This document shows, in pieces, positions 6,903 to 37,259 of a stretch of 64,000 bases of DNA. The notes under the pieces were generated by a model. That model searched no databases and was not told the origin of the DNA. It saw only the letters and a list, made by a program, of their open reading frames with translations. Origin of the DNA: Kiritimatiellia bacterium (GTDB lineage Bacteria; Verrucomicrobiota; Kiritimatiellia; JAAZAB01). Where the stretch lies: the NCBI GenBank assembly GCA_040767085.1, contig JAXGPF010000003.1, positions 192,001 through 256,000 of the forward strand, read 5' to 3'. The position numbers were made by a program, and so were the translations under genes. How positions within the stretch are numbered: the stretch's first letter is position 1; each line of letters starts with the position of its first letter.

Positions 6903-6911
6903 CCCACTGCA

Positions 6912-10025: not shown

Positions 10026-10042
10026 AAACGACAGGTTTGGAC

Positions 10043-11608: not shown

Positions 11609-11896
11609 CCGATCTATCACCTTTCAATCACCCAACCGCCGGAATCCAGCACCCGTTCGCGCCACGCAAGTCCCCACAGTGTGAGCAATTGACTGATAAA
11701 CGACCGACATTCGGGCTGAATGGACCGATCCGGCATACCCCCTCATCCTTGTTTCCAATGAATCCACCGACAATCTATCGACGTTCCGGCCGAATCTACC
11801 GATCAGGCATAGGACTGCGCGGGCGAATCGAACGCGACCGGAAAGGGCGGAACCGGACATGAACTACTTTGTTATCAGCAAGAATGGAGACATGAA

Positions 11897-16291: not shown

Positions 16292-16405
16292 TATTCTGCG
16301 TATTTGCTAAATACTGACACTCTGGAATATAAAACTGGAATAAAGATACATCAAACCGGTATTGCGTCTGCCGTATAGGAATATATTTTGATGGAGCAAT
16401 GAATC

Positions 16406-17317: not shown

Positions 17318-17327
17318 TGTGTTATGC

Positions 17328-17352
17328 GATATTAGCACTGGATAATAATATC
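17328..17352. promoter_or_regulatory. Palindromic operator candidate upstream of the Argonaute gene
   Basis: GATATTA-N11-TAATATC in the LysR-Ago intergenic region. Confidence 0.45.
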
Positions 17353-17418
17353 GGCAATTGATACATTGCCCGTGTTGAAACAAAAAAGCAGAAACAGTAT
17401 TAGCGGGCTTTATTATTT

Positions 17419-19023
17419 ATGGCCGCAGCAACAGATCAAAATATCGGCATGACAGTGTTCGAACTGCAATCGTTTGAATCCTGGCAAAATCGGATAGAAG
17501 CGGCCGCACAATCCGCCGGCGCCGGCATCACGCGCAAGGGGGCCGGTTGCCAGCTCTGGATGCCGAACCAGTTACTTCCCTTGCGCAAAACCAACTTGCA
17601 TTATGCCGATGGCGTTAAAATTTTCCGGGAATGGCTTGGCCCACGCCGCAACGCATTAGCCATTATCCCTCATCGCGTCTATTTTGAACCCGGCGCAAAT
17701 ACCCCCAGTATCAAGCCGGAACGGATTTTGATTGAAGGCGCACGTCCGGCATTGCCCAGCCCGGACAAACGAATCAGCTCATGTTTGGAATGGGCCGGGA
17801 TTTTATCAAAACATATTGATGGATTTGGTCCTGACCCTATCACGGTCGGACGAGTTCGGCATGATTTACACAAATCAACGCAATTGATTTTTGGCGGCGG
17901 CGCAGTTGTCACACCCGGTTCTAAAATCAGTTTGGCACTGATGAGCCACGGAGGCTATTCCACGCCTGCCCGGCTTCAGATTGAACTCGTGGCGCCCTCC
18001 GCCGCCGCCGGCAAAACAAAAACATATCAAACACTTTTGGCAAATGCCTTGAAGCGCTGTAAATGCCACGGCGTGATCTCGATGTTGACTTACGACAAAT
18101 TGCTGACACGCTTACAATCCGGAACGCCGGTAGCGACGCCCGGCACTTGTATTCTGCTCGCTGTAACCGGCAAAAAAGGCCTGCCGCTGGCCCCGGAATC
18201 CGAGACGCTGATAAATCTCATGGCTAATTTCAACATCCCGTTTCGCATGTTCTCCGTTGACAATCCGGCGCTGAACTGGTCGGCTTTGGATCAAGCCGGA
18301 TCGTTGATTACCGGTGCGGGCGGCATTCCATTCATCACCAAATTACCCTGGCCGGATGATATTGGGGAGCCATTCATTCTGGGAGTGGATGTTGGGCACC
18401 CGCCGACAGGCGAGGAAAGCCAGGTTGTCATTAGTTTAATGGATCATCAAGGTGTTTTGCTGGGGAGTTGGCGCCAATCCCAGCCGCGTGATGAGACAAT
18501 TCACACCGAAACGCTGCAAAATGGATTGACGTGGGCGCTTGAAAAAGCACGGTCAAATATTGCAAACGCAACCCCATCATTCCTGGTGCTGCGCGATGGC
18601 AGGTTGCATAAAGGCGAAAACCCCACATTTTACAGCCAGATACTGGGGCCAAAGACAACATTGATTGAATTTTCCAAACACAACACGCCTGAAATGTTCA
18701 TTATGGGTGCATGCCCGGCATCCGCCAAAGCCGGAACAGAGTGCCTTTTAACCGGTAGTTCCACACCATTTATCACTCCGGTGTCAGCGCGCATGAGCAG
18801 TGATTTATCCCGGACATTCAAAATCAACATGCCACCGGCATGGGATGGCCTGGGGCTTGGAATTGACAGAGTCAGCGAGATTGTGGTAGGATTATCTTAT
18901 ACTTCGGGACTCGGGTTAGCGCCACACGCATTACCCGGCCCAATTTACTGGGCGGACGGCATTGCCGCCATTTGCGAGCACAACCATCAATTTGCGGGGC
19001 AGAATATAATGGAGGGAAGATGA
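17419..19023 (+). CDS. Prokaryotic Argonaute (compact; MID-PIWI with intact DEDD tetrad)
   Basis: ILGVDVGH (D324), PRDETI (E359), VLRDGRL (D393), LPGPIYWADG (D513); L2/MID entry QLIFGGG...HGGYSTP; GAGGIPF before PIWI. Confidence 0.88.
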   Translation: MAAATDQNIGMTVFELQSFESWQNRIEAAAQSAGAGITRKGAGCQLWMPNQLLPLRKTNLHYADGVKIFREWLGPRRNALAIIPHRVYFEPGANTPSIKPERILIEGARPALPSPDKRISSCLEWAGILSKHIDGFGPDPITVGRVRHDLHKSTQLIFGGGAVVTPGSKISLALMSHGGYSTPARLQIELVAPSAAAGKTKTYQTLLANALKRCKCHGVISMLTYDKLLTRLQSGTPVATPGTCILLAVTGKKGLPLAPESETLINLMANFNIPFRMFSVDNPALNWSALDQAGSLITGAGGIPFITKLPWPDDIGEPFILGVDVGHPPTGEESQVVISLMDHQGVLLGSWRQSQPRDETIHTETLQNGLTWALEKARSNIANATPSFLVLRDGRLHKGENPTFYSQILGPKTTLIEFSKHNTPEMFIMGACPASAKAGTECLLTGSSTPFITPVSARMSSDLSRTFKINMPPAWDGLGLGIDRVSEIVVGLSYTSGLGLAPHALPGPIYWADGIAAICEHNHQFAGQNIMEGR

Positions 19024-19048: not shown

Positions 19049-20557
19049 ATGACACAAGTGCGGATAAATAACTTTAAATGTTTTGAAGAGGCTATTGTGC
19101 CGTTGCGCCGCTTGACCTTTATTTATGGACAAAACAGTTCCGGTAAAAGCACGATTTTTCAGGCAATTAATCTGATCCGGCTGGTCATTATGCAACTTAA
19201 TAAAAAAGAGAGTAGATACAGCAAAAACAAGGAACAAGACAAGTCGCGCGAAGATGAAGATATCGGAATGGATGCTTGGAAACGGATCCCTTGGTTTCGC
19301 GGTGGCATTTCAGCCATGCAACGGGACAAAAACGATCCCATTAAAATTGGCTTTACATTGAAATTGGAAGGAGATGGCACAGAAGGAAGCACCTATATTA
19401 CCACAGATATGTCTGTTGGTAATAAGTGGGATTTAGGAAAACACGGCAATTCCCTGCCGGACAAAATTGTTTTTGGCTTTCAATATGGCAAACTTGATGC
19501 GTTCCGCGACAAGGATAACAAATATTTAGATTTAACGATCACGATAAACAATCGCGTGCCAGAAAACCAACAAAGCGTTTTTAGCCGGCAATTCGGCTTT
19601 GTGCAAGTGTCACCGACCCTGTTGGATTGGTTTTGCAGGGAATATAGTCCCGCAAGCGAGCAAATATTCCGGGATTATTTTAATAGCCCATTACCCTTGA
19701 ATTGGGGCGAGGTGCCCTTTTTTAAATCCTTTAACAAAAAGCCTAAATATCCCAATAATGATCATGCGTTTAATAAGGCCTACAAATGGGTTAATGGTTC
19801 GCTTGAACGCGCGTGGGGAGAAATAGAGGATTATCTTAAACCAGCACTCTTGATGGGGTTTTATTCCGGACATATATCCGCCGATGAACATTATATAGGG
19901 CACGATATTCGAAATACTAACGTAAGATTTCATTTAAAAAAAGAATTTGATGATTTCCTAAATAATGAAAAGGTTATAAACCAGGTAAACGAAGCTCTCA
20001 ACCTTCTGGATACTCCACATCGTCTGGATTCAAAGAAAGGCATTCTTGATCTGCGCAAGCAAACATCTGAAAAAGGGAGCGTTTTGACGGAAGTTGGTTA
20101 TGGTATCCAATACCTTGTCCCGAGGCTTTTGTTGCTTTTTGGCGGAGAGCATCCACTATGCATGATCGAGGAGCCAGAAGCACATGTGCATCCGCGTTTA
20201 CAAGCCAAGCTTGGTTCATTGTTTTTAAAACAATCAGCATCTGCTGATATGATGCGGCAACTTATAATAGAAAGTCATAGTGAAAATCTTATTTTGCAAA
20301 TTAAACGCAATATTCATGATATGGCTGAAGCGGATGCAGAAACAGCGAAAAAATGGGCTGATAACATTTTGGCGCTTTACGTTGATTACTCACAGGACAC
20401 TGCAACGCCAGATATTGAAGCCGACGCGGAAAAGCCACAGGCAAACGTTGAGGCAACTCCCCGGATATCATACATCCGAATTGACAGCGAGGGTAATTTT
20501 ATGGATTATTGGCCTAAAGGATTCTTCCCTGAACGTCAAGAAAACCTTTACTACTGA
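19049..20557 (+). CDS. ABC-type (AAA_21-like) ATPase with DUF3696 C-terminus
   Basis: INNFKCF, Walker A GQNSSGKST, VGYG signature, IEEPEAHVHP, IIESHSE, WPKGFF. Confidence 0.9.
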   Translation: MTQVRINNFKCFEEAIVPLRRLTFIYGQNSSGKSTIFQAINLIRLVIMQLNKKESRYSKNKEQDKSREDEDIGMDAWKRIPWFRGGISAMQRDKNDPIKIGFTLKLEGDGTEGSTYITTDMSVGNKWDLGKHGNSLPDKIVFGFQYGKLDAFRDKDNKYLDLTITINNRVPENQQSVFSRQFGFVQVSPTLLDWFCREYSPASEQIFRDYFNSPLPLNWGEVPFFKSFNKKPKYPNNDHAFNKAYKWVNGSLERAWGEIEDYLKPALLMGFYSGHISADEHYIGHDIRNTNVRFHLKKEFDDFLNNEKVINQVNEALNLLDTPHRLDSKKGILDLRKQTSEKGSVLTEVGYGIQYLVPRLLLLFGGEHPLCMIEEPEAHVHPRLQAKLGSLFLKQSASADMMRQLIIESHSENLILQIKRNIHDMAEADAETAKKWADNILALYVDYSQDTATPDIEADAEKPQANVEATPRISYIRIDSEGNFMDYWPKGFFPERQENLYY

Positions 20558-20564
20558 TTTTGCT

Positions 20565-21752
20565 ATGCTCAATTATTGCACCATAGACCCATTTCTCGTT
20601 ACGATGGCGAGAACACCAACAATCCCCTCATCGGGTAACAATATACAAATATCTACTACTTCGGAACCAGCTCCCTCGTCTACTGTCCCCAGACAGGTTG
20701 GTCACAGTTCAATCCGATATTTTCTGAAGAGAGTTGCCAGCCGGCACATTTTGTGCGACTTTTTCCTGGGAGTGAGTGGATCCGGAACGTGTAAATATCG
20801 AAAATATTTTGAGGACATAGTTTTTGCCGGTGAAAATCATTTTGCCGTCTACTGGCGGGAATTTTCTTTGGCTCGACATTTTGAGCGATTAAAAACAGAT
20901 TTTACGAATTTCCGTGATAAGGATCGCCTTGCGAAAATATGCCCGGATGTTTGCCCAAAATCATCTGCGGGTGCTGATGACTGGGGCAACTGGGCCATGA
21001 AAATGGGCTACCTGTTGGCAGGATGCGCCGCCGACGATATAACAATAATTATTGCGCACCATAAGACGGTTGAAATGCTGAATGCGCTACTTAACCATTT
21101 TAAATGTGCGCTTACCCCTGAAACAAGCGCTTATATTGAAAAGTATCGGCGAAACTGCGTAACCGTAGAGAACCAAGCTGAAGCAAGCGGCTTGAAGTTG
21201 AGCGGCAACTTGGAGGTCCTCGAAAATTCGTGGTTTTTGCTTTCAAGCGTGGAACGGTTTGACCGCCGGATAAATCTTTCAATAGGCCTAAATTTAGCGG
21301 GAATACCGGTGACCGAGTTTTTAAAATTGTTAAACCCTATTCGCCAATGCTTTCCGCATGTCTACGCAATACAATCCTCCAAGCCACCAAATAAAACCTT
21401 GGCTTTATGGAAACAAAACAATTTTAATATCAATATAATTACCACTGATAGTTTACCAAAAGAGCATAAAGGGCTTTGGCATGATCGGTTTATTGTATTT
21501 GCTTCACATCCTCGAGAGCAGGGCATGCGATCACCACACCGGTTTGTAGCGTTGGTATTTTCAGCGCCATTTGAGCAGATATTTTATGTGCCTGAACAAC
21601 ATTTTATGCGCCATAATACTTTTTATTTGCGCCAAGGTACTTGCCTTTTGCGCTGTGACAGTGATTGTTCTAATACTCCAGGGTCTCATGAAAATATAGC
21701 AAGCTTTCTTGCAAATACTTCAGCTACGCTCCCCCCTTTATCTGAACCATGA
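20565..21752 (+). CDS. Hypothetical protein with C-terminal HDRF motif (possible PLD-like nuclease)
   Basis: ATG 7 nt after the ATPase stop; GLWHDRFIVF; overlaps the next start (ATGA). Confidence 0.6.
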   Translation: MLNYCTIDPFLVTMARTPTIPSSGNNIQISTTSEPAPSSTVPRQVGHSSIRYFLKRVASRHILCDFFLGVSGSGTCKYRKYFEDIVFAGENHFAVYWREFSLARHFERLKTDFTNFRDKDRLAKICPDVCPKSSAGADDWGNWAMKMGYLLAGCAADDITIIIAHHKTVEMLNALLNHFKCALTPETSAYIEKYRRNCVTVENQAEASGLKLSGNLEVLENSWFLLSSVERFDRRINLSIGLNLAGIPVTEFLKLLNPIRQCFPHVYAIQSSKPPNKTLALWKQNNFNINIITTDSLPKEHKGLWHDRFIVFASHPREQGMRSPHRFVALVFSAPFEQIFYVPEQHFMRHNTFYLRQGTCLLRCDSDCSNTPGSHENIASFLANTSATLPPLSEP

Positions 21753-23233
21753 AGACAAACGCTATGCCTGTCTCAAACAAAGTATCGTGTGGCATCGGAA
21801 ACTATCCTGATGCTTTATTACGGCTATCTCAACAGCATCAGCCTTTTTGCGATTGGCTCTTGCTCGGACGTTACATTCTTCTGGGAGACGATGGAATTTC
21901 CAATGATGAGCGCAAGGATATCAAGCGGACGAAAGAATATCAACAATTTGCCAATATGTTTTTTGATTTAATCCAGAATATCGAGCGTAATACTCTTGTT
22001 ATTAACTCCGAAACCGCAGACATCCTGACTGGTCTTGCGGCATTTTATGTTTCTTTACGATGTGTTGTGTCGTACAAAAAGAATGTCATGATCAAGGCCA
22101 TGCAATACAACATATTGTTGTATAATTCTATAATATCGGCAATGAAGAGAAACAAAATACACTCATCTATATTTGCCGAAAACATAGTCGCTGGATGTGA
22201 AATTGTGCTCAAGGCAACCGCTAATGACAAGAAGAAAACCCCAGAAGCGCTGGATGCCGGCGTTGATCTGTTGGGTAAATTAATGGAAAGAGTTCCAGGT
22301 GCAACGCCGCTGGGTGACGCCATATTGCGTTATATACGTGATTGGCAGGCGCTGGGCTCCATTGAGGATTCCTGGCTTGAACAAAAACGTGATCAGGCTT
22401 TGTTGCGTTATGTAGGGATAGACGACAACTATTTAAGCAAATATGAAGAATTCAAGGCATGGACGAATTATCACCCTGATGATAATGGTGCAGCAAAAAG
22501 ACTTTTCTTTTTTGCTAAACCTTTAGTTGAAGTGTTTTGCCGGGAAAAACGTTATGAAGACGCCGCTAAAGTATGTGTTGATATTTATAATTTGCACATT
22601 CTTTCAGACACATACAAGCAAGCCATGTTTTGCTTGTTTTACGACTCTTTAACCTTGGATTTGTCTAACGCCAAATGTGAGATCAACCTCGCCCTAAATG
22701 CGCTTATAATTATTTTTGACAAACTAAAACCGGCGGATAATTTTGTTTCAGCCCATTTTGCTGAATTAAAATTATGGGCTGCTATTGGACATATTCAGGC
22801 AAGACGTTCAAAAGACAACGCATCCATTATTAAAGATTTGCCAGAACCCTTGCCCATATCTGAACATGCTCAAAATAAAATTGCCTGGGAAATTTATCGC
22901 CGTTGCAAGCTTTGTATAAAAACTGACCCAATAATGGTTATTGACATGCTTGAACTATATGCTCATTTATCGGAAATAGAAAAGCCGTCTTTGCTTCATT
23001 CCATGATGTTGCAATACGCAACACGTGTTGGTTCATCTTGGACTGGTTTTATTAAATTTATGCGTACACGAGATATGGCTACTTTCCGCCCGGAGGATTT
23101 CAAGACGACAGTTTATGGCAATCGCACATATAACAGTTTGGTTGATAACACTATAAAATGCCTATATCAAACAATAAAACATCAAAAATGGCGTATTATG
23201 GAATCGGCAAGACCCACCGTCAAGGCAATATAG
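21749..23233 (+). CDS. N-terminal part of a helical/TPR-OB-fold protein (DUF7017/TOTE-like), probably a split gene
   Basis: AWEIY...EKPSLLHSMMLQYA...FRPEDF...YNSLV resembles the N-half of TPR + S1/CSD proteins. Confidence 0.6.
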   Translation: MKTNAMPVSNKVSCGIGNYPDALLRLSQQHQPFCDWLLLGRYILLGDDGISNDERKDIKRTKEYQQFANMFFDLIQNIERNTLVINSETADILTGLAAFYVSLRCVVSYKKNVMIKAMQYNILLYNSIISAMKRNKIHSSIFAENIVAGCEIVLKATANDKKKTPEALDAGVDLLGKLMERVPGATPLGDAILRYIRDWQALGSIEDSWLEQKRDQALLRYVGIDDNYLSKYEEFKAWTNYHPDDNGAAKRLFFFAKPLVEVFCREKRYEDAAKVCVDIYNLHILSDTYKQAMFCLFYDSLTLDLSNAKCEINLALNALIIIFDKLKPADNFVSAHFAELKLWAAIGHIQARRSKDNASIIKDLPEPLPISEHAQNKIAWEIYRRCKLCIKTDPIMVIDMLELYAHLSEIEKPSLLHSMMLQYATRVGSSWTGFIKFMRTRDMATFRPEDFKTTVYGNRTYNSLVDNTIKCLYQTIKHQKWRIMESARPTVKAI

Positions 23234-23239
23234 GCCGTA

Positions 23240-24699
23240 TTGGACTATCCCCAAAATATCCTGTGGGATTTTGCGCGGATAGTGTTATTTTCTAAGAAAG
23301 TGAGTGAAAAACGGATTTTTCTGACCATCTGGAAAGTGAAATAGTGGTCTCCAACTGGAAATCCCGTATAATTGGGGTTGAACCAACCAAGAAGGAGACC
23401 ACCGGAATGAATAATAGTCAGACGGCATTCAAATTGCGATCTCAACTTTTAAAATATTTGGGGATATTTTCACCCCATTTTTCCAAACCAGCATTGGCTT
23501 TTCTTGGTGACATGCTCTATGGGATCCAGGCATCCAAAGATATCAAGCTGAGTTGCATTGGCAGGGGCCTGGACGAGGTGATTTCGCTCAAGAAAACCGA
23601 AGAGCGATTAAGCCGGAATCTGGGATGTGAGGGGCTGGCTCAGAGGGTATCGGATTGTTTGGCGTGTGAAGGCGCCAGGCACATAGGGAATGACACCTTG
23701 ATTGTGATAGATCCGACCGATATTCGGAAGCTCTACGCCCGGAAAATGCCATATTTGGCAAAAGTGCGAGACGGGAGCAGCGGCGAGATCGGCAACGGGT
23801 ATCATTGCGGTGTTGCAGTGGCTTGCGAAAGCGGCGGACGCAGTATAGTCCCTTTGCATCTGCGCCTATGGTCGAGCACCGCGCCTGATTTCAAAAGTGA
23901 AAACGATGAGATTGAACAAATCGTCAGCACTATCTGCGCGGGTGCAAAACGACGCGGGATTTACGTTGTGGACCGCGGCGGCGACCGTGACAAGCTGTTT
24001 AATGTGTTAATTGACAGACGCTTGCGATTCATTGTGCGTTTGATTGGCCACCGCCATCTGTTGTGGAGAAAACGCCCCATCCTGGCTGAAAAGCTAGTTG
24101 GTAAATGCCGGATTTCTCACGTTGAAACCATCCGTCGTGAAACTGCCGAAGGTGAAAAAATTTACCGGATTGAATACGGTGCAATTAATGTGTTTCTGCC
24201 GGAACATCCCGATAAACCATTGCGCATGGTCGTTGTGAAGGGATTTGGAGCAAAGCCCATGATGCTCCTGACGGACTTGGCCGGTGGAGATTCCCGGAAA
24301 GGTCTCTGGCAGGTCATTGAAGGATACCTGAGTCGCTGGCGGGTCGAAGATGCGATTCGCTACATCAAGCAAAGCTATCGCCTTGAGGACATCCGCCTGA
24401 TGGATTACACGCGGCTTCGCAACATGATGGCCATGCTGCTGGCCACTGTTTTCTTTGCTTCCGTGTGGCTCGGCAAATCTTTACGCAAAAGCATTCTGGT
24501 CGGCAACATCACCCGCGTTTCCAAGCGACTTTTCGGTGTAGTGGAGTTCCATTATTACGCTATCGCTGACGGCATTGCCGCCTTGTTGCGCCGTTTCGGA
24601 AAATGGCACGGCGCCTGGAATGGCCCCGCCCGAAACACTGTCTCACACCAATTGGAATTAGCCTTGTTTGATTCAGGATAAAAAATGGGGATAGTCCAA
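23240..24699 (+). mobile_element. IS4-family insertion sequence, 1460 bp
   Basis: 14-bp perfect IRs TTGGACTATCCCCA (23240-23253 and 24686-24699); 13-bp target duplication AATATAGGCCGTA (23227-23239, 24700-24712). Confidence 0.93.
23407..24681 (+). CDS. IS4-family DDE transposase
   Basis: IVIDPTD, VVDRGGD, YLSRWRVEDAIRYIK (Y-2-R-3-E-6-K). Confidence 0.92.
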   Translation: MNNSQTAFKLRSQLLKYLGIFSPHFSKPALAFLGDMLYGIQASKDIKLSCIGRGLDEVISLKKTEERLSRNLGCEGLAQRVSDCLACEGARHIGNDTLIVIDPTDIRKLYARKMPYLAKVRDGSSGEIGNGYHCGVAVACESGGRSIVPLHLRLWSSTAPDFKSENDEIEQIVSTICAGAKRRGIYVVDRGGDRDKLFNVLIDRRLRFIVRLIGHRHLLWRKRPILAEKLVGKCRISHVETIRRETAEGEKIYRIEYGAINVFLPEHPDKPLRMVVVKGFGAKPMMLLTDLAGGDSRKGLWQVIEGYLSRWRVEDAIRYIKQSYRLEDIRLMDYTRLRNMMAMLLATVFFASVWLGKSLRKSILVGNITRVSKRLFGVVEFHYYAIADGIAALLRRFGKWHGAWNGPARNTVSHQLELALFDSG

Positions 24700-24762
24700 A
24701 ATATAGGCCGTAAAGTATACGGAAGCACTTGATGAAGCATCCGTAGAGCTATAACCATAATA

Positions 24763-24798
24763 CACCCACTCCCGTATAGACGGGGGTGGGTGATTTTT
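24763..24798 (+). terminator. Strong hairpin followed by a T tract
   Basis: CACCCACTCCCGT-ATAG-ACGGGGGTGGGTG-ATTTTT. Confidence 0.55.
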
Positions 24799-24872
24799 AA
24801 AGAGATCTCTTTGCTTGCTCTTGTATAGTTTAGCCTTCGTAATTGGTATTGCCAAATATTCAGGATATTAAG

Positions 24873-26147
24873 ATGGATAATGAATCAAAAACCACTGCGA
24901 AGAAGGATGACGCAGAACATCGCCTTGCGGAGTTGCATAACACGCAAAAAGTAAAGAATACCGGTGACGCGCCTTCAAAAGCCGGAAATGATGACTTCGA
25001 TATAGAGATCAAAAAACAGACCGCCGATACTGAAGAAGATTACCAGGCGCTAATTGACGCATACGAAGACGAATGCGCCCCAGTTGATGAATTGGATTGC
25101 CCGGACGATAGCACAGACGATATTTCTGATTTGTCTTTCGCGCTCGATTTTGTCCAACGCTATTACAAGCAGTGTTCACAACAAACATACGCGGCATATT
25201 ACTACGCAAAACTGCTTTTATTCGCTGATCATAAAAATCAGGCACAAACAGTGTTGCTTGAAGACGCGATTAGTCTTTCCAACAAATATTGGTTTTGGAC
25301 AACGCTCGCTGATACTTTCCAAAACAATGACGACAAAAAACGCCAGGCATGTCTATGCAAGGCGATATTGACAGCCCGGCCCGAAGACGCAAAATATCTA
25401 AATCCTTTGCGCAGGGATTTGCGCGACATATTTAAAGACAACCCAGAATATAACACTGAATCCGACAATTTACCGCTTTATCAGAAATACGCTATTCCAG
25501 CCGATGCAATCGCGACTACAACTCTTAATTGGTTGCCGGCTGTTGTGTTGGGCGTCAAGGATGGAAGCAATATCCGCGTATTATTTCGACAAGATGATAT
25601 GTATTTGTGCGCGAAAGGCACACTAAACGACAACAAATGGTCACACCTTAAACGCGGCGCTTCTATTAGCGTAAAAATCACGGGGAACGCACCTGACATC
25701 ATGGTTCTTTGCATTAAAATACGACGTGCATCAGACTGGAGTATTTTGCCATGGGAGTTTGCAGTTGTTGTGCAAAAATATTCAGCTCGCAAAAGCGTAA
25801 TATTGGCTTTAGTAAAGGGGAAAACACTGATTGTGTCCTCGCGGATATGGCGGGAAGCGGTGAATTGGGAATTAGGCGACATACTGCAAATTAAAATCTT
25901 GCGCGCGGATGGCGAGGAAATAATTGTCGCCTCGAAAATATCACATAAAACCCCCGATTTTGTAAAAAAGACAACCAGTGTCGTTTTGCAAATTAATAAT
26001 GAAGGATGCGCTTGGGTTGATGATGATACTTTTCTGCCGCGCAGACTGACCGCATAGCTTGGTTTAATGAAAGGCGACAAGGTAAGCCTGACAGCGGTTG
26101 AAACCGCGCAAAACAAGTGGGAAACTATTCAAGCCGATAAAAATTGA
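24873..26147 (+). pseudogene. C-terminal part of the TPR-OB protein with an internal TAG at 26055-26057
   Basis: YYYAKLLL...YWFWTTLADTF...ACLCKAI (TPR-like), then beta-rich OB-like repeats; the frame continues past TAG as LGLMKGDKVSLTAVETAQNKWETIQADKN. Confidence 0.65.
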
Positions 26148-26151
26148 TTTT

Positions 26152-26260
26152 GAGACGCTGTAGAGGTGTGTTTGAGGCCGATGAATGCAATTGCTCGGCC
26201 GGTTATTACGGGTCAGTATGACCCAATGTCGATTCGATGTTAAATCCTCTGCAGCGTCTC
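26152..26260 (+). ncRNA. Candidate RT-associated structured ncRNA
   Basis: 15-bp closing stem GAGACGCTGTAGAGG/CCTCTGCAGCGTCTC (one G-U pair) enclosing hairpins GGCCGA/TCGGCC and GGGTCA/TGACCC; ends 8 nt before the RT ATG. Confidence 0.65.
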
Positions 26261-26268
26261 TTTATTTT

Positions 26269-27987
26269 ATGAGTGAATTGATCGCCAGCGTAACATTGCA
26301 TAAAGTTGCTAATATTCTGATAGGGTTGCGCCTAAAGGATATGCGCGCGCGCCATGATTGCCTTTTTTATTATCAAATCAGTGATGCGGCGCCTTCCGAA
26401 GAGGCCATGCGCGAGTCCGGCGCAGCGAATTATTTGCCGCCACGCCGGCAATGGATACGTCCTGCCCGAGCGGACAGAGCCGGTTTGAATCACGATGCTG
26501 TCGTGCGCAAAGGGATATGGAAAACAATAGCCACACATTTGCGTGGTGGCACGCTCGACAGCACCCTCTGGGGACAACAACTTCTTTCTTTACACGCTGA
26601 AATACAGGAAGCGTTTAATGCGCCTGAAAACACTGTGTTTACACCACCTGACGTTTTGTTAATAAAAAAAGCTGAAACCGGCAAGTATCGCATAATGGCG
26701 CCCTGCGCAAACATAAAGGAGCGTATAATCAGTGGTATTCTGGCGCGCTATTTTGAAGATTTAATTGAATCAGTATTGGATGATTCGTGTTATTCCTTCC
26801 GCATGAACGGCCAAACTCTCCACGACGCAATTTTGAATCTACAGACATATAGCCAAAACAACACCGACAAAATGCTGTATGTTGCAGAATGCGACTTGCG
26901 TGGGTTTTTTGACAGTCTATGCCATGATGTTGCCATTGATGCCGTAAAATATTTGGCTTCTATTCGCCACATAACCATTGATCCCGGAGCCATGGTTTTG
27001 CTGAATTCACTTTTGCGCTCATATTCTTTTCCGGGTTATGCGTTACCTAAAGCACTTGAAAAATTAAAAGATAATACGACAGGTTGCATTGACTGGTTGT
27101 CTCCACAAGAGCGCAATAAAATATATGGCAAAATTGCAGATACCGCCATAGGTATCCCGCAGGGAAATCCGATTTCTCCTGTTTTGGCAAATGCAGCATT
27201 AACTTTTGCGGACAAACAAGTTAAATCCGTATTGGGAACCGAAGGCTTTTACGCACGCTATTGTGATGATATAATTCTTTTACATCCTGACAGAAAAATA
27301 TGTGATTCAGGCTTGAAAGCTTATTATCACGCCATTACAAAACTTCGTCTGCCGGCACACCCAGCGGAGATTGTTGTAAAATACAGCAAATCTCATTACA
27401 ATAAAAAATCCCGCAAACCTTACCCTTGGGGTGACGATAAATCCATGGAAAAGGCTATGCCGTGGATACAATTTGTTGGGTATCAACTGCACAGGGACGG
27501 AATAATTAGAATTCGCAAACAAAGTATAAATAATCAAAAAATGGCAATAAACAAAGTCGTTGCTACAGCTCGGAAGATTGTTCACAAATCTAAAAAAAAC
27601 AATATTCCGTTGAAACTGGACCCGAAAAAAATATATTGCAAAGTGATAATGCGCCTTGTTCGCGCAGGGCTTGGCGACCGCCGGCCTAAAGCAGGCACAC
27701 ATCCGATCGCTGAGCCATGCTGGATTGACGCATTCCCTCTGATCGAAAGGAATCCATGGACAGAAAAGCAAATGCGGGAATTGGATCGCCATAGAGAGAT
27801 TGCATCGCGTAAATTTAAATATTGGCTCGTAAATAATGACAATTTTGTCGAAAACAATGAGTTTTCTGGCCGAAATAAAGAAAAACGCCCTGAACCATTT
27901 TATGGTGCCCCATACAGTTATTATTGCGCGTTGGATAGAGAAAAGAACAGAATCAGGGATTTTAATGCAAATTATGGCAATATTTAA
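26269..27987 (+). CDS. Reverse transcriptase (unknown-group/DRT-like)
   Basis: KKAETGKYR, DDSCYSFR, ECDLRGFFDSL, GIPQGNPISPVLAN, ARYCDDII, IQFVGY. Start placed at MSELI. Confidence 0.92.
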   Translation: MSELIASVTLHKVANILIGLRLKDMRARHDCLFYYQISDAAPSEEAMRESGAANYLPPRRQWIRPARADRAGLNHDAVVRKGIWKTIATHLRGGTLDSTLWGQQLLSLHAEIQEAFNAPENTVFTPPDVLLIKKAETGKYRIMAPCANIKERIISGILARYFEDLIESVLDDSCYSFRMNGQTLHDAILNLQTYSQNNTDKMLYVAECDLRGFFDSLCHDVAIDAVKYLASIRHITIDPGAMVLLNSLLRSYSFPGYALPKALEKLKDNTTGCIDWLSPQERNKIYGKIADTAIGIPQGNPISPVLANAALTFADKQVKSVLGTEGFYARYCDDIILLHPDRKICDSGLKAYYHAITKLRLPAHPAEIVVKYSKSHYNKKSRKPYPWGDDKSMEKAMPWIQFVGYQLHRDGIIRIRKQSINNQKMAINKVVATARKIVHKSKKNNIPLKLDPKKIYCKVIMRLVRAGLGDRRPKAGTHPIAEPCWIDAFPLIERNPWTEKQMRELDRHREIASRKFKYWLVNNDNFVENNEFSGRNKEKRPEPFYGAPYSYYCALDREKNRIRDFNANYGNI

Positions 27988-28748
27988 TTACCCGAAGATT
28001 TTTCCCATTCCCCGGCATCGGCAATATGCACGAAACACCGGCTGGTGTGGGTGGTGTCCCAGTCTGTTAAATCGTATGGATCCTGGGCATGTTTTTGCTT
28101 TTTCCGCCGGCCAGGCGCCAGCCCCATGCCATACGCTGGGCTGGGTTCGCCAACCATGTTGTATCTTGTCTTATTCCGGATCGGAAACCGCCGAATAAAT
28201 GCCGCGCTTTTCATGGGAAATACCATGATTTGCAGTCCGCCATAGACTGACTGCCCTGTTATTTGCTCTTCCACGGTTTGTCCGGATCCCATCGGCGCCG
28301 CCACAAATTGGCGAACGATTCCGGGGCCGGAACAATAGCCGTCTAATTTACGCTGTTCGGGAATCACCAGATAATTCTGGGGATGTCGACTGAGCGTGTT
28401 TTCCCATCGCTGACCGGTAACGGCATTGATTTTGCCGGCAGCCACCAGCACGGCAAACGGATACGCGGAACCACTATCCTCAATGTATGCCGAGTTAAAG
28501 GTCAAGCGCAGCGCTTCTGACTGAGCCATGGGCAGCATGACCCCGCCATGCTCCAGCCAGGCGGCGGAGATTTTTCCGGCAAAATCATCTACGTGGTATA
28601 AAGGGCAACGGTCCGTGGCATTTGGCAGGACATCGCCTTTTCTATCATCGCGCGAGCGCCGCGTGCGCTGAAATGCCACCCGCATTGCAGCGCTGGGATG
28701 GACTTCGGGAAACGAGAATACGAGTTGTTTATTTTCGATTAAAATCAC
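27984..28748 (-). CDS. Conserved hypothetical protein, possibly C-terminally truncated
   Basis: GGVMLPMAQSEAL, GKINAVTG, PQNYLVIPEQRKLDGY, VRQFVAAPMGSGQTVEEQ match a widespread uncharacterised family. Confidence 0.7.
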   Translation of the reverse strand: MILIENKQLVFSFPEVHPSAAMRVAFQRTRRSRDDRKGDVLPNATDRCPLYHVDDFAGKISAAWLEHGGVMLPMAQSEALRLTFNSAYIEDSGSAYPFAVLVAAGKINAVTGQRWENTLSRHPQNYLVIPEQRKLDGYCSGPGIVRQFVAAPMGSGQTVEEQITGQSVYGGLQIMVFPMKSAAFIRRFPIRNKTRYNMVGEPSPAYGMGLAPGRRKKQKHAQDPYDLTDWDTTHTSRCFVHIADAGEWEKSSGN

Positions 28749-34231: not shown

Positions 34232-34786
34232 ATGCATAAGGTACTCAACAGCGGTCATTTTATCAAGTATTTAGAGCGATTTGATGGGAAGATTGCGCAG
34301 GCCGCCAAGGCGGAGATGTGCCGGTATTGCGGCGGCAAGCTGCATTGCGGCGATTATGCGCGCAAGCCGCGCGGTGTTGTCGGGTGGGATAAACGCCACA
34401 GTTTTAACTGTGCGCGGTGTCGGCGGCGCAAGACGCCGCCCAGCGTGCGTTTTCTTGGGCGCCGGGTTTATGCGGGCGTGGTGGTGGCGCTGGTGAGCGC
34501 GCTGATGCATGGTCTGAATGCTGGGCGCGCGCAGGTATTGGTTGAAAAACTGGGCATTGACCGGCGAACATTAAAGCGTTGGCTTGCATGGTGGCGCGCG
34601 GTGTTTGTGACGAGCGGGTTTTGGAAGGGCGCTCGGGCGAGTTTTATGCCACAGGTTGAGGCTACCCGGATGCCGTTGAGTTTATTGGAGGCGTTTGGCG
34701 CGGAGCGGCGCCGCGGGATGTTCAAGCTGTTACTTTTTATTGCGCCGATTACCACTGGTTCGTGTGAAATGGCGGTGGTTATGTGA
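34232..34786 (+). CDS. Zn-finger/HTH accessory protein of the transposon (DUF6431-like)
   Basis: CRYCGG...RKPRG...CARCRRRKTPPSVRFLGRRVY...IDRRTLKRW. Confidence 0.7.
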   Translation: MHKVLNSGHFIKYLERFDGKIAQAAKAEMCRYCGGKLHCGDYARKPRGVVGWDKRHSFNCARCRRRKTPPSVRFLGRRVYAGVVVALVSALMHGLNAGRAQVLVEKLGIDRRTLKRWLAWWRAVFVTSGFWKGARASFMPQVEATRMPLSLLEAFGAERRRGMFKLLLFIAPITTGSCEMAVVM

Positions 34787-34922
34787 TGGTTGTTTTTCTC
34801 CCGCAGAGCATGCCGCTGGAGCTTTGCGCGAGGGCGTTATACCTTGGGCGGCATTGCAACGGAATGGTCGGCGGAGCGGAATGGATTTCGCTTGGCGGCG
34901 GGCCAGACGGGAGGGGTGCGCA

Positions 34923-36419
34923 ATGCCAAAACAGGATGCGGATTATAGCGCGGGTGGCGGTGGTTCCGGGGGATGCGCGCGGTGGGCGCATTTTCGTTTC
35001 AGCGTAATTGGCCCATTATTGGCGGCGCCGCCGGGGCGGGGCGATTTGCAGGCGGAGATTGCGCTTCTGGCCGGCAAGCAATGGCGGCATCCGGTGACGG
35101 GGCAATGGGTGCGGTTTGGGTCTTCCACGATTGAGCGGTGGTATTACCGGGCTTTACATGGGGCCAAAGACCCGGTCGGCGTGTTGACGCGCAAGGTGCG
35201 CAACGATCATGGCGCCCATCGCAGTTTGAGCTTTGAGTTGCGCAATGCAATAAGCGTCCAGCACCAACAACACCCGGAGTGGAGTTGCCAACTGCATTAC
35301 GACAACCTGGCGGTGCGCGTGGCGGAGGATTCGCGACTGGGAGCGTTACCGTCTTATGTGTCGGTGCGCCGTTATATGCGTGCCGCGGGGATGTTCAAGC
35401 GCCGCCGTTTGGGCGGGCGCCGGGATACCGCCGGCGCCCGGGCCGCCGAAGCGCGGTTTGCGGCTTTAGAGGTGCGCTCCTACGAAAGCGAGTACGTCAA
35501 TGCGCTATGGCATTTGGACTTTCATCAGGGATCAATCCCGGTCTTGACCAAGCCCGGCGAGTGGTTGCGGCCGCAATTACTTGGAGTGTTGGACGATCAT
35601 TCCCGCATGTGCTGCCACTTGCAGTGGTACCTGGCGGAAACCGCCGAGAACCTGACGCATGGGTTAAGCCAAGCCATGCAAAAATGCGGTCTGCCAAGGG
35701 CGCTGATGACGGACAACGGCGGCGCCATGACGGCCGACGAAACCACGCAAGGACTCGCGCGTTTAGGTGTTTTACACGAGAAGACGCTGCCCTATAGCGC
35801 CTACCAGAACGGCAAACAGGAATCCTTCTGGGGGCAAATAGAAGGGCGGTTGCTGCCCATGCTCGGCGGCTGCCCTGATTTGACGCTGGCACAGCTCAAC
35901 CAGGCGACACAGGCCTGGGTCGAAATGGAATATAACCGCAAGGTGCATTCCGCGACCGCCCGATCGCCGGTTGATCGTTTTGTCAATGTCAAAGACGTGG
36001 GCAGAACTTGCCCATCCGCGGAAGTCTTGCGCCAGGCATTCACCGCCGGATGTTCGCGAACGCAACGCTTTAGTGATGGCACCATTAGCATTGACGGCGT
36101 ACGCTTCGAGGTGCCTTCCCGCTACCGCCATATCAAACGCATCGGCGTGCGATACGCCGCATGGGACTTGTCTTATGTTCATCTGGCCGACGCGCGTAGC
36201 GATCAAATCTTGACGCGGCTATTTCCGCAAGACAAACACAAAAACGCCGACGGCCACCGCCGCCAAAAGGAAACCATAGGCGACCATCCCGATCCAACAT
36301 CGCCGCCGCCGCGGTCAACCGGCATGGCGCCACTGTTGCGCAAATTCATCGCGGATTATGCCGCCACCGGGCTGCCGCCAGCTTATCTGCCAAAGGATGA
36401 ACTCAAAATACAGGAGTAA
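34923..36419 (+). CDS. DDE transposase (rve integrase core, Mu-like C-terminus)
   Basis: LWHLDF, LDDHSR, MTDNGG, QNGKQESF, YNRKVHS. Confidence 0.9.
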   Translation: MPKQDADYSAGGGGSGGCARWAHFRFSVIGPLLAAPPGRGDLQAEIALLAGKQWRHPVTGQWVRFGSSTIERWYYRALHGAKDPVGVLTRKVRNDHGAHRSLSFELRNAISVQHQQHPEWSCQLHYDNLAVRVAEDSRLGALPSYVSVRRYMRAAGMFKRRRLGGRRDTAGARAAEARFAALEVRSYESEYVNALWHLDFHQGSIPVLTKPGEWLRPQLLGVLDDHSRMCCHLQWYLAETAENLTHGLSQAMQKCGLPRALMTDNGGAMTADETTQGLARLGVLHEKTLPYSAYQNGKQESFWGQIEGRLLPMLGGCPDLTLAQLNQATQAWVEMEYNRKVHSATARSPVDRFVNVKDVGRTCPSAEVLRQAFTAGCSRTQRFSDGTISIDGVRFEVPSRYRHIKRIGVRYAAWDLSYVHLADARSDQILTRLFPQDKHKNADGHRRQKETIGDHPDPTSPPPRSTGMAPLLRKFIADYAATGLPPAYLPKDELKIQE

Positions 36420-36428
36420 TCAAACATC

Positions 36429-37259
36429 ATGAGTAAAAAACTACTTGCGCTATACAGCCTGAAGTACAACCCGTTCTGCCAGGAAGTGCCGACCGCCGCA
36501 CTATTCAGGACGCCGGCCGTCGAACATTTTTGCTGGCGGATTGAAAATCAGGTCGGCGAAGGCGGCTTCGCGTTGGTTACCGGCTCGCCCGGATCCGGCA
36601 AAAGCGTGGCGCTGCGTATTCTGGCCGACCGGCTGCGCGGCATCCCGGATATCACCGTCGGCATCATCACCCGACCACAAGCATCCGTGGCCGACTTCTA
36701 CCGCGAAATGGGCGATCTGTTCGCAACTACGCTGACGCCAAGCAACCGTTGGGGCGGCGCCAAGGCGTTGCGTCAAAAATGGCTGACCCATATTGACGCC
36801 TCGCTCTACCGCCCCGTCCTCCTCATCGATGAAGCCCAACTCATGACGCCGGGAACACTGGGTGAACTGCGCATGCTGGCAAGCGCCGAACTCGACTCGC
36901 GTAGCATCCTCACCGTGGTGCTCGCCGGGGATGAAAGACTGGTTAACAAACTGCGCAGCGACGACCTGTTGCCAATGGCCAGCCGTATCCGCTGCCGGCT
37001 GCCCTGTGACCCCGCCACCCCTCAACAACTACGCGAATGCCTCAACCATCAGCTAAAACAGGCCGGCAACACCAGATTGCTTTCAGACCCCGTAATCGCC
37101 GCGCTTTGCGAACATGCCGCCGGAAATTACCGGTCTTTAATGAACATGGCCAACGACCTCTTGGCCGCCGCATTACAACGTGAACTCGACCAAATTGATG
37201 AAAAACTCTTCTTCGATGTGTTCAATATCCGTGCCATATCAACGCAAAAATCCCAATAA
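36429..37259 (+). CDS. ExeA-like AAA ATPase (transposition helper)
   Basis: GSPGSGKS, LLIDEAQ; directly follows the transposase. Confidence 0.88.
   Translation: MSKKLLALYSLKYNPFCQEVPTAALFRTPAVEHFCWRIENQVGEGGFALVTGSPGSGKSVALRILADRLRGIPDITVGIITRPQASVADFYREMGDLFATTLTPSNRWGGAKALRQKWLTHIDASLYRPVLLIDEAQLMTPGTLGELRMLASAELDSRSILTVVLAGDERLVNKLRSDDLLPMASRIRCRLPCDPATPQQLRECLNHQLKQAGNTRLLSDPVIAALCEHAAGNYRSLMNMANDLLAAALQRELDQIDEKLFFDVFNIRAISTQKSQ

What the first reader, a model, noticed from the sequence alone, without database searches (positions are those of the whole stretch)
26269..27987. Stand-alone YCDD reverse transcriptase that fits none of the common classes
Seen: all core RT motifs, a ~120-aa N-terminal extension, an insert after YCDD (KSRKPYPWG) and a ~160-aa basic C-terminus. 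It has no retron VTG motif, no DGR-type GxxxSQ, no recognisable maturase/HNH domain and no cas1. Inference: an unknown-group/DRT-like RT whose DNA product is uncharacterised. The ORF is intact while its upstream neighbour has decayed, suggesting it can act with only its RNA.
Basis: partly seen in the sequence, partly recalled or inferred. Interest (0 to 1): 0.75.

Follow-up and report, generated by a model that had tools for sequence, protein, structure and literature searches.

The report
Defence reverse transcriptase and its RNA
An intact reverse transcriptase of a catalogued but never tested bacterial family (UG39) sits directly behind its own conserved structured RNA, as the last gene of a cassette from a little-known conflict system, so it is not a lone enzyme and has a partner set not described for this family.

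Summary
The ORF is real, intact and catalytically complete. It does belong to a catalogued class: PADLOC RT_UG39 matches end to end (E 6.8e-114). UG39 is a Class 2 UG/Abi group, formerly UG28b, with no experimental work (Mestre 2022).

It is not stand-alone. A 119-nt structured RNA (26147-26265) lies just upstream of the true start (26269). A covariance model built from relatives finds it (33.4 bits). The model's structure is 95% paired across 22 relatives, with 29 of 35 pairs showing compensatory changes. It hits 37 more times in 58 metagenome loci, always on the RT strand.

The RT closes a cassette conserved in its clade: AAA_15 ATPase, unknown gene, TPR-DUF7017-OB protein (PADLOC PDC-M16B, Pfam TOTE domains), ncRNA, RT. 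In the window the TPR-DUF7017 gene is in two ORFs with an IS4-type element between them. The TOTE helicase-TBP gene was not found in 18-36 kb.

The closest full-length solved fold is DRT9. The likely mechanism, by analogy only, is ncRNA-templated, protein-primed DNA synthesis for phage defence.

Earlier notes of this scan recorded a UG39 RNA on other DNA. I found no mention of the TOTE link in the notes or papers searched.

The parts
26269..27987 (+). UG39-type (Class 2 UG/Abi) reverse transcriptase, 572 aa from the likely start. The longest ORF starts at 26185. YCDD box at 27259-27270. Tyr/Ser-rich conserved C-terminal tail at about 27901-27924.
   Evidence: PADLOC RT_UG39 E 6.8e-114, profile positions 9-538 of 541. 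Pfam RVT_1. Invariant catalytic residues in 38 homologues. AF2 pLDDT 87.1. DRT9 is the longest structural match.
26147..26265 (+). Structured non-coding RNA. A 15-bp closing stem (26152-26166 with 26246-26260) encloses three hairpins. It ends 3-8 nt before the RT start and is followed by a U-rich run.
   Evidence: MFE z-score -4.77, 0 of 200 shuffles as stable. Covariance model R2, built from relatives only, gives 33.4 bits, E 1.1e-6, against 11.9 bits for the next hit in 3.6 kb. Family covariation. No Rfam match.
24843..26057 (+). C-terminal half of the TOTE-type TPR-DUF7017-OB protein (PADLOC PDC-M16B-like). Likely start is the ATG at 24873. It has an acidic disordered N-terminus, then helical repeats, then a beta-rich tandem OB-like region.
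   Evidence: Pfam DUF7017 E 3.9e-15. PDC-M16B hits. Residues 90-403 match family HMM positions 402-759. AF2 model pLDDT 78. Weak Foldseek matches to tandem-OB proteins such as HIN-200, Unr CSD1-2 and SSB, best E 1.5e-4.
24763..24792 (+). Terminator-like hairpin (13 pairs, then a T run) between the two halves of the TPR-DUF7017 gene.
   Evidence: Consensus scan. A pattern match only.
23240..24700 (+). IS4-family insertion sequence with a DDE transposase ORF (23344-24681), 14-nt terminal inverted repeats and a 12-13-bp target duplication (23227-23239 and 24700-24712).
   Evidence: Pfam DDE_Tnp_1. Repeats read. Contigs of three other metagenome runs cover exactly 23240-24700 at about 50x with different flanks. 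Single copy in this assembly.
21749..23233 (+). N-terminal half of the TPR-DUF7017 protein, helical, 494 aa. Its start overlaps the stop of the gene before it by 4 nt.
   Evidence: PDC-M16B N-terminal parts matched. Residues 359-479 match family HMM positions 267-398, E 8e-15.
20565..21752 (+). Unknown 395-aa protein in the position of the conserved roughly 389-aa cassette gene. Start chosen 8 nt after the ATPase stop; the longest ORF starts at 20280.
   Evidence: Position and size only. No Pfam or PADLOC family. Profile comparison finds only one short shared motif, probability 1.9%. Start candidates.
19049..20557 (+). AAA_15/AAA_21 ABC-type ATPase (best PADLOC match NsnB), first gene of the cassette.
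   Evidence: Pfam and PADLOC. Clusters with the ATPases that head the cassette in L001, L002, L020, L035 and L051.

Best explanation
The ORF is an intact UG39-type (Class 2 UG/Abi) reverse transcriptase that works as a ribonucleoprotein with the structured RNA encoded directly upstream of it. The pair is the terminal module of a horizontally acquired cassette: ABC-type ATPase, unknown protein, TPR-DUF7017-OB protein of the TOTE/PDC-M16 kind, ncRNA, RT. The cassette sits in a dense defence island.

Shown here: the class of the RT, its intactness, the conserved covarying RNA, and the conserved gene order in its clade.

Inferred from the characterised Class 2 relatives DRT9, DRT10 and DRT2: the RNA is both scaffold and template; DNA synthesis is primed by a hydroxyl residue in the conserved Tyr/Ser-rich C-terminal tail; the product is a repetitive or homopolymeric single-stranded DNA made on phage infection.

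More speculative: the tandem OB-like domains of the TPR-DUF7017 partner read that nucleic acid and couple it to the ATPase, and in fuller loci to a helicase-TBP protein.

In this genome the cassette is perturbed. An IS separates the two halves of the partner gene, and no helicase-TBP gene was found in 18-36 kb.
For: Class: RT_UG39 E 6.8e-114 full length, against Drt2 2.2e-25 and Drt9 6.1e-20.

Intactness: invariant catalytic residues and a confident fold.

RNA:
- z -4.77.
- Model R2 hits 22 of 82 sources, all on the RT strand just upstream of the RT, and the window at 33.4 bits with filters off.
- 95.2% of cells paired, 29 of 35 pairs with double changes, 0 of 500 shuffles as high, slid controls 46-53%.
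- 37 hits in 58 metagenome loci that were not used to build the model, all on the + strand.

Cassette:
- TPR-DUF7017 gene next to the RT in 9 of 80 genome loci plus the window and in 7 of 58 metagenome loci.
- Pfam DUF7017, S1CSD-TOTE-2 and TBP-TOTE domains, and PADLOC PDC-M16A/B, in those loci.
- All TOTE-linked RTs and the window RT fall on one side of a branch with SH-aLRT 98.

Horizontal transfer and defence context: GC 0.39-0.48 across 19-28 kb against about 0.6 in the flanks. No UG39 homologue in 4 same-genus and 28 other same-family genomes; only weak hits, best E 3.7e-6. HmaABC, PDC-S11, a pAgo-like gene and AbiEi lie in the window.

Mechanistic analogy: DRT9 is the top Foldseek match, with 550 columns, and the longest VIA alignment, 439 residues, Z 22.9. 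DRT9 and DRT10 prime from C-terminal Tyr or Ser and use an upstream ncRNA as template (passages read). G574 is invariant, and S578 and Y579 nearly invariant, in the UG39 tail.
Against: - No expression or product data. The one RNA run laid covered only the IS.
- Defence enrichment for UG39 was inconclusive in Mestre 2022.
- Partner genes differ between clades: VirE-PriCT-2 in 24 of 80 loci; SF1 helicases, DprA-like, DUF1848 or SSB in others. The RT-RNA pair may therefore be autonomous.
- In the window the partner gene is split. A terminator-like hairpin and an IS lie between the halves. No helicase-TBP was found in 18-36 kb. The middle gene shows no significant similarity to the conserved 389-aa gene.
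- The window RNA lacks the model's first hairpin.
- Structural Z-scores for DRT9, a group II intron RT and a DGR RT are tied.
- The alignment used for pair counts was fitted to the model's structure, which favours pairing.
- The tree has no outgroup and used the quick method.
Confidence: 0.6

Rival explanations
1. The RT and its RNA form a self-sufficient two-part defence module, as DRT2 and DRT9 do. The TOTE-type genes, like VirE-PriCT-2 elsewhere, are accessory or merely neighbours in defence islands. This is.
For: The RT plus upstream RNA is the only feature seen in both tested sets, in the RT's own clade. Partner genes change between clades. RT plus ncRNA is sufficient for DRT2, where associated clusters were judged accessory, and DRT9 is a two-component system. 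In the window a terminator-like hairpin precedes the DUF7017 half, RNA and RT.
Against: Within the clade the TPR-DUF7017 gene is co-oriented and directly adjacent to the RNA-RT in 16 loci from different lineages. Its OB-type domains suit a nucleic-acid product. DRT10 needs its SLATT partner, so Class 2 RTs are not always autonomous.
Confidence: 0.25
2. The cassette in this genome is a disabled remnant. The IS insertion, the split partner gene and the missing helicase-TBP have inactivated it, and the RT is open only because the damage is recent.
For: An IS with a perfect target duplication and an intact transposase lies between the halves. The partner is in two ORFs where 8 of 9 related genome loci have one gene of 646-927 aa. 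Helicase-TBP was not found in 18-36 kb. No RNA evidence for the locus.
Against: The first ORF's stop lies within the duplicated target, so the split predates the IS. Short DUF7017 forms occur naturally, for example 521 aa in L066 and 630 aa in L002 and L020. L001, L046 and L051 also show no helicase-TBP in the flanks held. All five cassette ORFs and the RNA are intact.
Confidence: 0.2
3. It serves a non-defence job, such as priming or replicating a mobile element. This echoes the primase partner (VirE-PriCT-2) of the sister clade.
For: UG39 defence enrichment was inconclusive, and its named partner is a primase-polymerase type protein. SSB or DprA-like genes lie beside the RT in L018, L084, L007, L011, L013, L020, L056 and L070.
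Against: The window is packed with defence genes. The TOTE and PDC-M16 partners are conflict-system components. No replication or integration genes adjoin the cassette between 19 and 28 kb.
Confidence: 0.08
4. It is the RT of a mobile retroelement, either a group II intron or a retron.
For: A group II intron RT has the nominally highest VIA Z-score (23.4), tied with DRT9 at 22.9. PDB sequence hits to the RT core of intron and retron RTs reach about E 1e-22.
Against: No Rfam intron or retron RNA in 23-30 kb at E up to 1. No maturase or endonuclease domain. One copy in the genome. UG39 model E 6.8e-114 against 1e-9 or weaker for the retron and CRISPR-associated RT models shown.
Confidence: 0.02

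Closest known systems
UG39 (formerly UG28b), Class 2 UG/Abi reverse transcriptases (Mestre et al. 2022, PMC9226505; passages read)
   Same: Full-length match to the PADLOC RT_UG39 profile. About 570-600 aa with no added known domain. Same family-wide N-terminal and C-terminal conserved motifs.
   Different: The group was named partly for its link to a VirE + PriCT-2 protein. The window RT lies on the other side of the family's main split, where that partner was not found and TOTE-type or helicase genes take its place. The passages of that paper that I read mention no ncRNA for UG39.
DRT9 (UG28): RT plus upstream ncRNA, protein-primed poly-dA synthesis (PMC12483538, passages read; PDB 9vma, 9nlv, 9ioa)
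   Same: Best full-length structural match. A structured ncRNA is encoded directly upstream of the RT. The C-terminal tail has conserved tyrosines. A U-rich run follows the RNA's closing stem in 14 of 23 elements examined (no control).
   Different: 14-17% identity. The Drt9 profile scores only E 6.1e-20. The RNA matches no Rfam family and has a different architecture: one long closing stem with three or four hairpins. The U run is not universal. No SLATT gene. The product is unknown.
DRT10 (UG17): RT, ncRNA and SLATT, telomerase-like tandem-repeat synthesis (bioRxiv 10.1101/2025.10.16.682844, passages read)
   Same: Class 2 UG RT that needs both an ncRNA and a partner protein. Primes from a C-terminal Ser or Tyr. 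Its template lies in an unpaired stretch after a stable stem-loop, a layout that the UG39 RNA's conserved unpaired stretch before the 3' strand of the closing stem could match.
   Different: The RT_UG17 profile scores only E 7.1e-18. The partner is TPR-DUF7017-OB, not SLATT. I could not complete a test for the template repeat pattern.
TOTE conflict systems (TPR, OB, TBP, Effector; Aravind, Iyer and Burroughs 2022, known to me only through its citation in PMC12458937) and PADLOC candidate PDC-M16
   Same: The neighbour carries DUF7017 and matches PDC-M16B. Homologous neighbours in related loci carry the Pfam S1CSD-TOTE-2 domain, and nearby helicases carry TBP-TOTE and match PDC-M16A.
   Different: The window lacks a detectable helicase-TBP gene in 18-36 kb, and its TPR-OB gene is split. 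An RT-ncRNA module is not part of the PDC-M16 model pair. Whether the 2022 review lists RTs among TOTE effectors I could not check, because the paper is not held.

Membership tests
UG39 (Class 2 UG/Abi RT) | Full-length match to the group's RT profile, better than to any other UG/DRT group | tested here: met
   RT_UG39 E 6.8e-114, profile 9-538 of 541. Next best Drt2 2.2e-25 and Drt9 6.1e-20.
UG39 (Class 2 UG/Abi RT) | Association with a VirE + PriCT-2 protein (cluster 64 of Mestre 2022) | tested here: not met
   An HMM of the VirE-PriCT-2 neighbours hit 24 of 80 related loci but nothing in window 18-36 kb. All VirE-linked RTs lie on the other side of the family's main split. I therefore file it as UG39-like by sequence, in a subgroup with different partners.
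UG39 (Class 2 UG/Abi RT) | No additional known protein domain fused to the RT (the Class 2 trait) | tested here: met
   Pfam finds RVT_1 only.
UG39 (Class 2 UG/Abi RT) | Phylogenetic placement inside UG39 relative to UG28 and other UG groups | not tested
   My tree holds only UG39-like sequences. The Mestre reference alignment (their Supplementary File S1) was not used.
DRT9 (UG28) | RT best matched by the DRT9/UG28 profile | tested here: not met
   Drt9 E 6.1e-20 against UG39 6.8e-114.
DRT9 (UG28) | Structured ncRNA encoded upstream of the RT and needed by it | tested here: inconclusive
   A covarying RNA is present upstream. It is not the DRT9 RNA by any test made here, and Rfam gives no match. 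Whether the RT needs it is not testable with these tools.
DRT9 (UG28) | Universally conserved poly-U template tract | tested here: inconclusive
   A run of four or more U within 10 nt after the closing stem in 14 of 23 elements. One was unreadable and no control was computed.
DRT9 (UG28) | Priming from conserved C-terminal tyrosines; hexameric RNP | not testable with these tools
   A conserved Tyr/Ser-rich tail exists, but in the model its pLDDT is only 43-72.
TOTE conflict system / PADLOC PDC-M16 | TPR-type repeat protein with DUF7017 (PDC-M16B) | tested here: met
   DUF7017 E 3.9e-15. PDC-M16B models hit both ORFs. They are colinear with the family HMM, but the gene is in two ORFs.
TOTE conflict system / PADLOC PDC-M16 | OB-fold (S1/CSD) domains on that protein | tested here: inconclusive
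   Pfam S1CSD-TOTE-2 is found in homologues L001, L007, L018, L035, L046 and L051 but not in the window protein. The window protein's beta-rich C-terminal half gives weak tandem-OB matches, best E 1.5e-4 with low TM.
TOTE conflict system / PADLOC PDC-M16 | SF1 helicase with a TBP-like domain (PDC-M16A) | tested here: not met
   No hit of the helicase-TBP HMM in window 18-36 kb. It is present in related loci L002, L007, L018 (fragment), L020, L035, L094, L097 and L105. The rest of the genome was not searched.
Group II intron RT / retron RT | Cognate intron or msr-msd RNA; maturase/En domains or a retron RT profile as best match | tested here: not met
   No Rfam hit. Pfam finds RVT_1 only. Retron and intron-type models are much weaker than UG39.

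The most novel reading that the evidence does not exclude
UG39-type RT-ncRNA pairs are the nucleic-acid-writing arm of a subset of TOTE conflict systems. On infection the RT makes a protein-primed, RNA-templated single-stranded DNA. The tandem OB domains of the TPR-DUF7017 protein read that DNA, which switches on the ATPase and helicase components. That would be a defence system in which a self-made cDNA is the internal signal passed to a separate sensor protein. It would also give the first function for both UG39 and TOTE.
Probability: 0.2. Interest if true: 0.8.

Novelty: new variant of a known kind. Interest (0 to 1): 0.6.

Why it matters
Class 2 UG reverse transcriptases have each turned out to write an unexpected DNA product: a de novo gene (DRT2), poly-dA (DRT9), telomere-like repeats (DRT10). 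UG39 is one of the groups for which I found no experimental study. This locus and its relatives supply three things needed to test it:
- a defined covarying RNA partner;
- a candidate priming tail;
- a conserved protein partner set (ATPase, unknown gene, TPR-DUF7017-OB, sometimes a helicase-TBP) that ties an RT to the uncharacterised TOTE/PDC-M16 systems.

It also shows that one RT-RNA core is combined with at least three different partner sets. That bears on how these systems sense phage and pass on the signal.

Tried and rejected
- **Rfam.** A scan of 23-30 kb at E up to 1 gave nothing.
- **RNA alignment.** A plain MAFFT alignment of ten RNA elements put the window out of register, so I used covariance models instead. 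Model R1 did not find the window. R2 found it only with filters off.
- **Third model.** A longest-stem-versus-shuffle test was uninformative: background about 9 pairs, only 11 of 78 loci beyond all 60 shuffles. Pair counts on 14 rows that I had picked because they showed the stem gave 90% paired and 7 of 11 pairs with double changes. The percentage paired is circular there.
- **Complex prediction.** RT with the DUF7017-OB half gave no verdict: score 0.00, controls not run.
- **Middle cassette gene.** A profile comparison against the conserved 389-aa family found one short motif only, probability 1.9%.
- **Closer relatives.** The metagenome scan found none above 34% identity, so the contexts of P0002 and P0003 (54% and 47% identity) remain unseen.
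- **Read laying.** No contig joined across an IS-free site, and there was no RNA cover of the RT or RNA element. Neither is evidence of absence.
- **Papers.** The Aravind 2022 TOTE review is not held. Full-text searches for 'PDC-M16', 'DUF7017' and 'TOTE systems' found nothing further that was relevant.
Full report
**Observation**

The window holds one open frame from 26185 to 27987 on the + strand.
- Homologues begin to align about 28 residues in.
- The first 28 residues of the long ORF are modelled with pLDDT under 50.
- The two upstream in-frame ATGs lie inside a structured RNA.

Pfam finds only RVT_1, at residues 160-394 of the 600-aa ORF. In an alignment of 38 family members the motif A aspartate, the YCDD box and several residues of the insert after it are invariant. 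So are a basic Pro/Arg/Trp motif in the N-terminal extension and a Gly/Ser/Tyr motif near the C-terminus.

**Class**

Against PADLOC the protein matches RT_UG39 over the whole profile, E 6.8e-114. The next groups are Drt2 (2.2e-25), Drt9 (6.1e-20) and UG17 (7.1e-18).

Passages of Mestre et al. 2022 that I read give this account of UG39:
- It is a Class 2 UG/Abi group split from UG28.
- It was named partly for its association with a VirE + PriCT-2 protein.
- Its defence prediction was inconclusive.

A full-text search for 'UG39' found 4 papers holding both terms. Three were listed, and Mestre 2022 was the only relevant one.

The family is small but widespread:
- 48 protein clusters at E up to 1e-5.
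- 284 confirmed relatives among 349 pattern matches in one-genome-per-species contigs.
- 74 loci in metagenome contigs. I used the first 58; most of the remaining 16 are short partial matches of E 2e-12 or weaker.

The organism's class appears to be Kiritimatiellia. A same-class genome's contig is the record behind L018.

No UG39 homologue was found in 4 same-genus genomes. In the 28 other same-family genomes there were only weak matches, best E 3.7e-6. The 19-28 kb stretch has GC 0.39-0.48 against about 0.6 in the flanks. The cassette was therefore probably acquired horizontally.

**The RNA**

The 212 nt between the upstream gene and the RT start fold far better than shuffles: z -4.77, 0 of 200 as stable. 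A 15-bp stem (26152-26166 with 26246-26260) encloses three hairpins.

The same layout appeared upstream of the RT in related loci.
- A covariance model seeded with five of them found 12 elements.
- The rebuilt model found 22 in 82 sources, every one on the RT strand just upstream of the RT.

On that alignment:
- 95.2% of cells pair.
- 29 of 35 pairs show changes on both sides.
- No shuffle of 500 reaches the observed values.
- Sliding the partners drops pairing to 46-53%.

The alignment is fitted to the model, which favours pairing, but the margin is large.

With filters off the model finds the window element at 26147-26265 (33.4 bits, E 1.1e-6). The next hit in 3.6 kb scores 11.9 bits. The window copy lacks the model's first hairpin.

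In 58 metagenome loci that played no part in building the model it gives 37 hits at E up to 0.1, all on the RT strand. Rfam has no match.

In the VirE-linked clade the evidence is weaker. A closing stem at the homologous position covaries in 14 rows, but I chose those rows because they showed it. A cruder stem test was uninformative.

Two earlier notes of this scan had already reported a UG39-associated RNA on other DNA. My result agrees with them and was obtained independently.

**Neighbours**

I clustered all ORFs of the 80 genome loci and searched with HMMs of the main clusters. This gave two partner sets:
- A roughly 330-aa VirE-PriCT-2 protein beside the RT in 24 of 80 loci (PADLOC RTasVirE-PriCT2).
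- A TPR-DUF7017 protein directly upstream of, and co-oriented with, the RT in 9 of 80 loci plus the window.

The TPR-DUF7017 proteins are 521-927 aa. They carry DUF7017, and in six of the nine also the Pfam S1/CSD domain of TOTE conflict systems. They match PADLOC PDC-M16B.

Other genes recur around them:
- Further upstream, an AAA_15 ATPase in 5 of the 9 and an unknown gene of about 389 aa in 6 of the 9.
- In four of the nine, an SF1 helicase with a TBP-TOTE domain (PDC-M16A), either whole or as a fragment at the contig edge.

Seven of the 58 metagenome loci repeat the TPR-DUF7017 adjacency. Two pairs of these may be duplicates.

In a tree of 79 RTs, one branch (SH-aLRT 98) separates two sides (quick method, midpoint root, no outgroup):
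- A 26-row side holds the window RT, its two closest relatives, all TOTE-linked RTs and every RNA-model hit.
- A 53-row side holds all the VirE-linked RTs.

Other members of the 26-row side sit beside SF1 helicases, DprA-like, DUF1848, ADP-ribosylglycohydrolase or SSB genes.

**The cassette in the window**

| Coordinates | Feature |
|---|---|
| 19049-20557 | ATPase |
| 20565-21752 | Unknown 395-aa gene |
| 21749-23233 | TPR half |
| 23240-24700 | IS |
| 24763-24792 | Terminator-like hairpin |
| 24873-26057 | DUF7017-OB half |
| 26147-26265 | RNA |
| 26269-27987 | RT |

The two halves align colinearly to one family profile, at positions 267-398 and 402-759. They therefore descend from one gene.

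The stop of the first half lies inside the 12-13-bp target duplication of the IS, so it was there before the insertion.

Contigs of three other runs cover exactly 23240-24700 at about 50x, with unrelated flanks. This confirms the IS boundaries and shows the element is common elsewhere. It is single-copy in this assembly.

The DUF7017 half models as helical repeats followed by a beta-rich region. That region gives weak matches to tandem-OB nucleic-acid binders.

No helicase-TBP was found between 18 and 36 kb. The middle gene shows no significant similarity to the conserved 389-aa family.

**Mechanism**

The RT model is confident: pLDDT 87.1, pTM 0.86.
- Foldseek ranks DRT9 first, E 3.3e-15 over 550 columns.
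- VIA gives DRT9 the longest alignment: 439 residues, model 28-595, Z 22.9.
- That Z is tied with a group II intron RT (23.4, 377 residues) and a DGR RT (22.9, 319 residues).
- No UG39 structure is solved.

From passages read in the DRT9 and DRT10 papers, Class 2 RTs have three traits:
- They use an upstream ncRNA as scaffold and template.
- They reverse-transcribe it repetitively.
- They prime from a Tyr or Ser in the C-terminal tail.

UG39 has the RNA, a conserved Tyr/Ser-rich tail and a conserved unpaired stretch just before the 3' strand of the closing stem. In 14 of 23 elements there is also a U run right after the stem (no control).

I therefore think ncRNA-templated, protein-primed synthesis of a repetitive or homopolymeric DNA is the most likely activity. 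That the OB domains of the partner read the product is speculation. None of this is shown. The complex prediction gave no verdict, and no RNA data cover the locus.

**Novelty**

The RT class is known. I found no mention of an RNA partner for UG39 in the passages of Mestre 2022 that I read, nor in the other papers listed by my searches.

I also found no mention of a link between UG39 RTs and TOTE/PDC-M16 genes or in the scan's notes. The 2022 review that defines TOTE is not held and may list RTs among its effectors. Supplements of Mestre 2022 were not opened and could hold neighbour tables that bear on this.

**Verdict**

This is a genuine, intact UG39-type RT, but it is not stand-alone. It is a new partner variant of a known kind, in a perturbed copy of its cassette.

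Noticed in passing
window 1039-14746: A Hma-type system: HmaA SNF2 helicase 1039-4587, HmaB DUF1156 methylase 6912-10025, HmaC DUF499 ATPase 11897-14746. Two other defence-type genes are lodged between its genes: a Schlafen/AlbA_2 + NB-ARC STAND protein (4584-6902) and a DUF4062 + HATPase_c_4 protein (9779-11608).
   Followed up: no
window 15209-19023: A PDC-S11-like protein (15209-16291), a LysR regulator (16406-17317) and a 534-aa pAgo-like protein (17419-19023; PADLOC pAgo E 4.6e-13, Pfam Piwi below cut-off). The pAgo-like gene ends only 26 nt before the cassette's ATPase. LysR genes also flank the cassette in L001 and L002. Whether the pAgo-like gene belongs to the same operon is open.
   Followed up: partly
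window 23240-24700: The IS4-type element is at about 50x in contigs of three unrelated metagenome runs, with different flanks. One contig joins its end back to its start with nine other letters between, which suggests a tandem or circular form or an assembly cycle.
   Followed up: partly
L023 6834-6995; L062 383-459; L009 109-205; also L008, L073, L080, L027: Purine-rich short tandem repeats fill the gap between the RNA element and the RT start in several Kiritimatiellia-type loci. The window has none. This matches the earlier scan note e1-4832542.
   Followed up: no
L018 5904-6398; L084 3307-3879 (-); L007 906-2393; L011 16-954; L013 5524-6489; L020 532-1602: Single-strand-DNA-handling genes (SSB, DprA-like) lie beside the RT-RNA module in several relatives. 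This fits a single-stranded DNA product.
   Followed up: partly
window 27984-28748 (-): A 254-aa ORF with no Pfam or PADLOC family converges on the RT and overlaps its stop by 4 nt. GC rises from 0.40 to 0.56 here, which probably marks the right edge of the acquired segment.
   Followed up: no
window 34695-38423 and 40120-40908: An rve-type integrase with AAA_22 and AAA_25 ATPases, looking like a transposition module, and an AbiEi antitoxin-type gene lie downstream.
   Followed up: no
window 28037-28126 (+): A second, weak hit of the RNA model (11.9 bits, E 0.059), matching only the closing stem. Probably chance.
   Followed up: no
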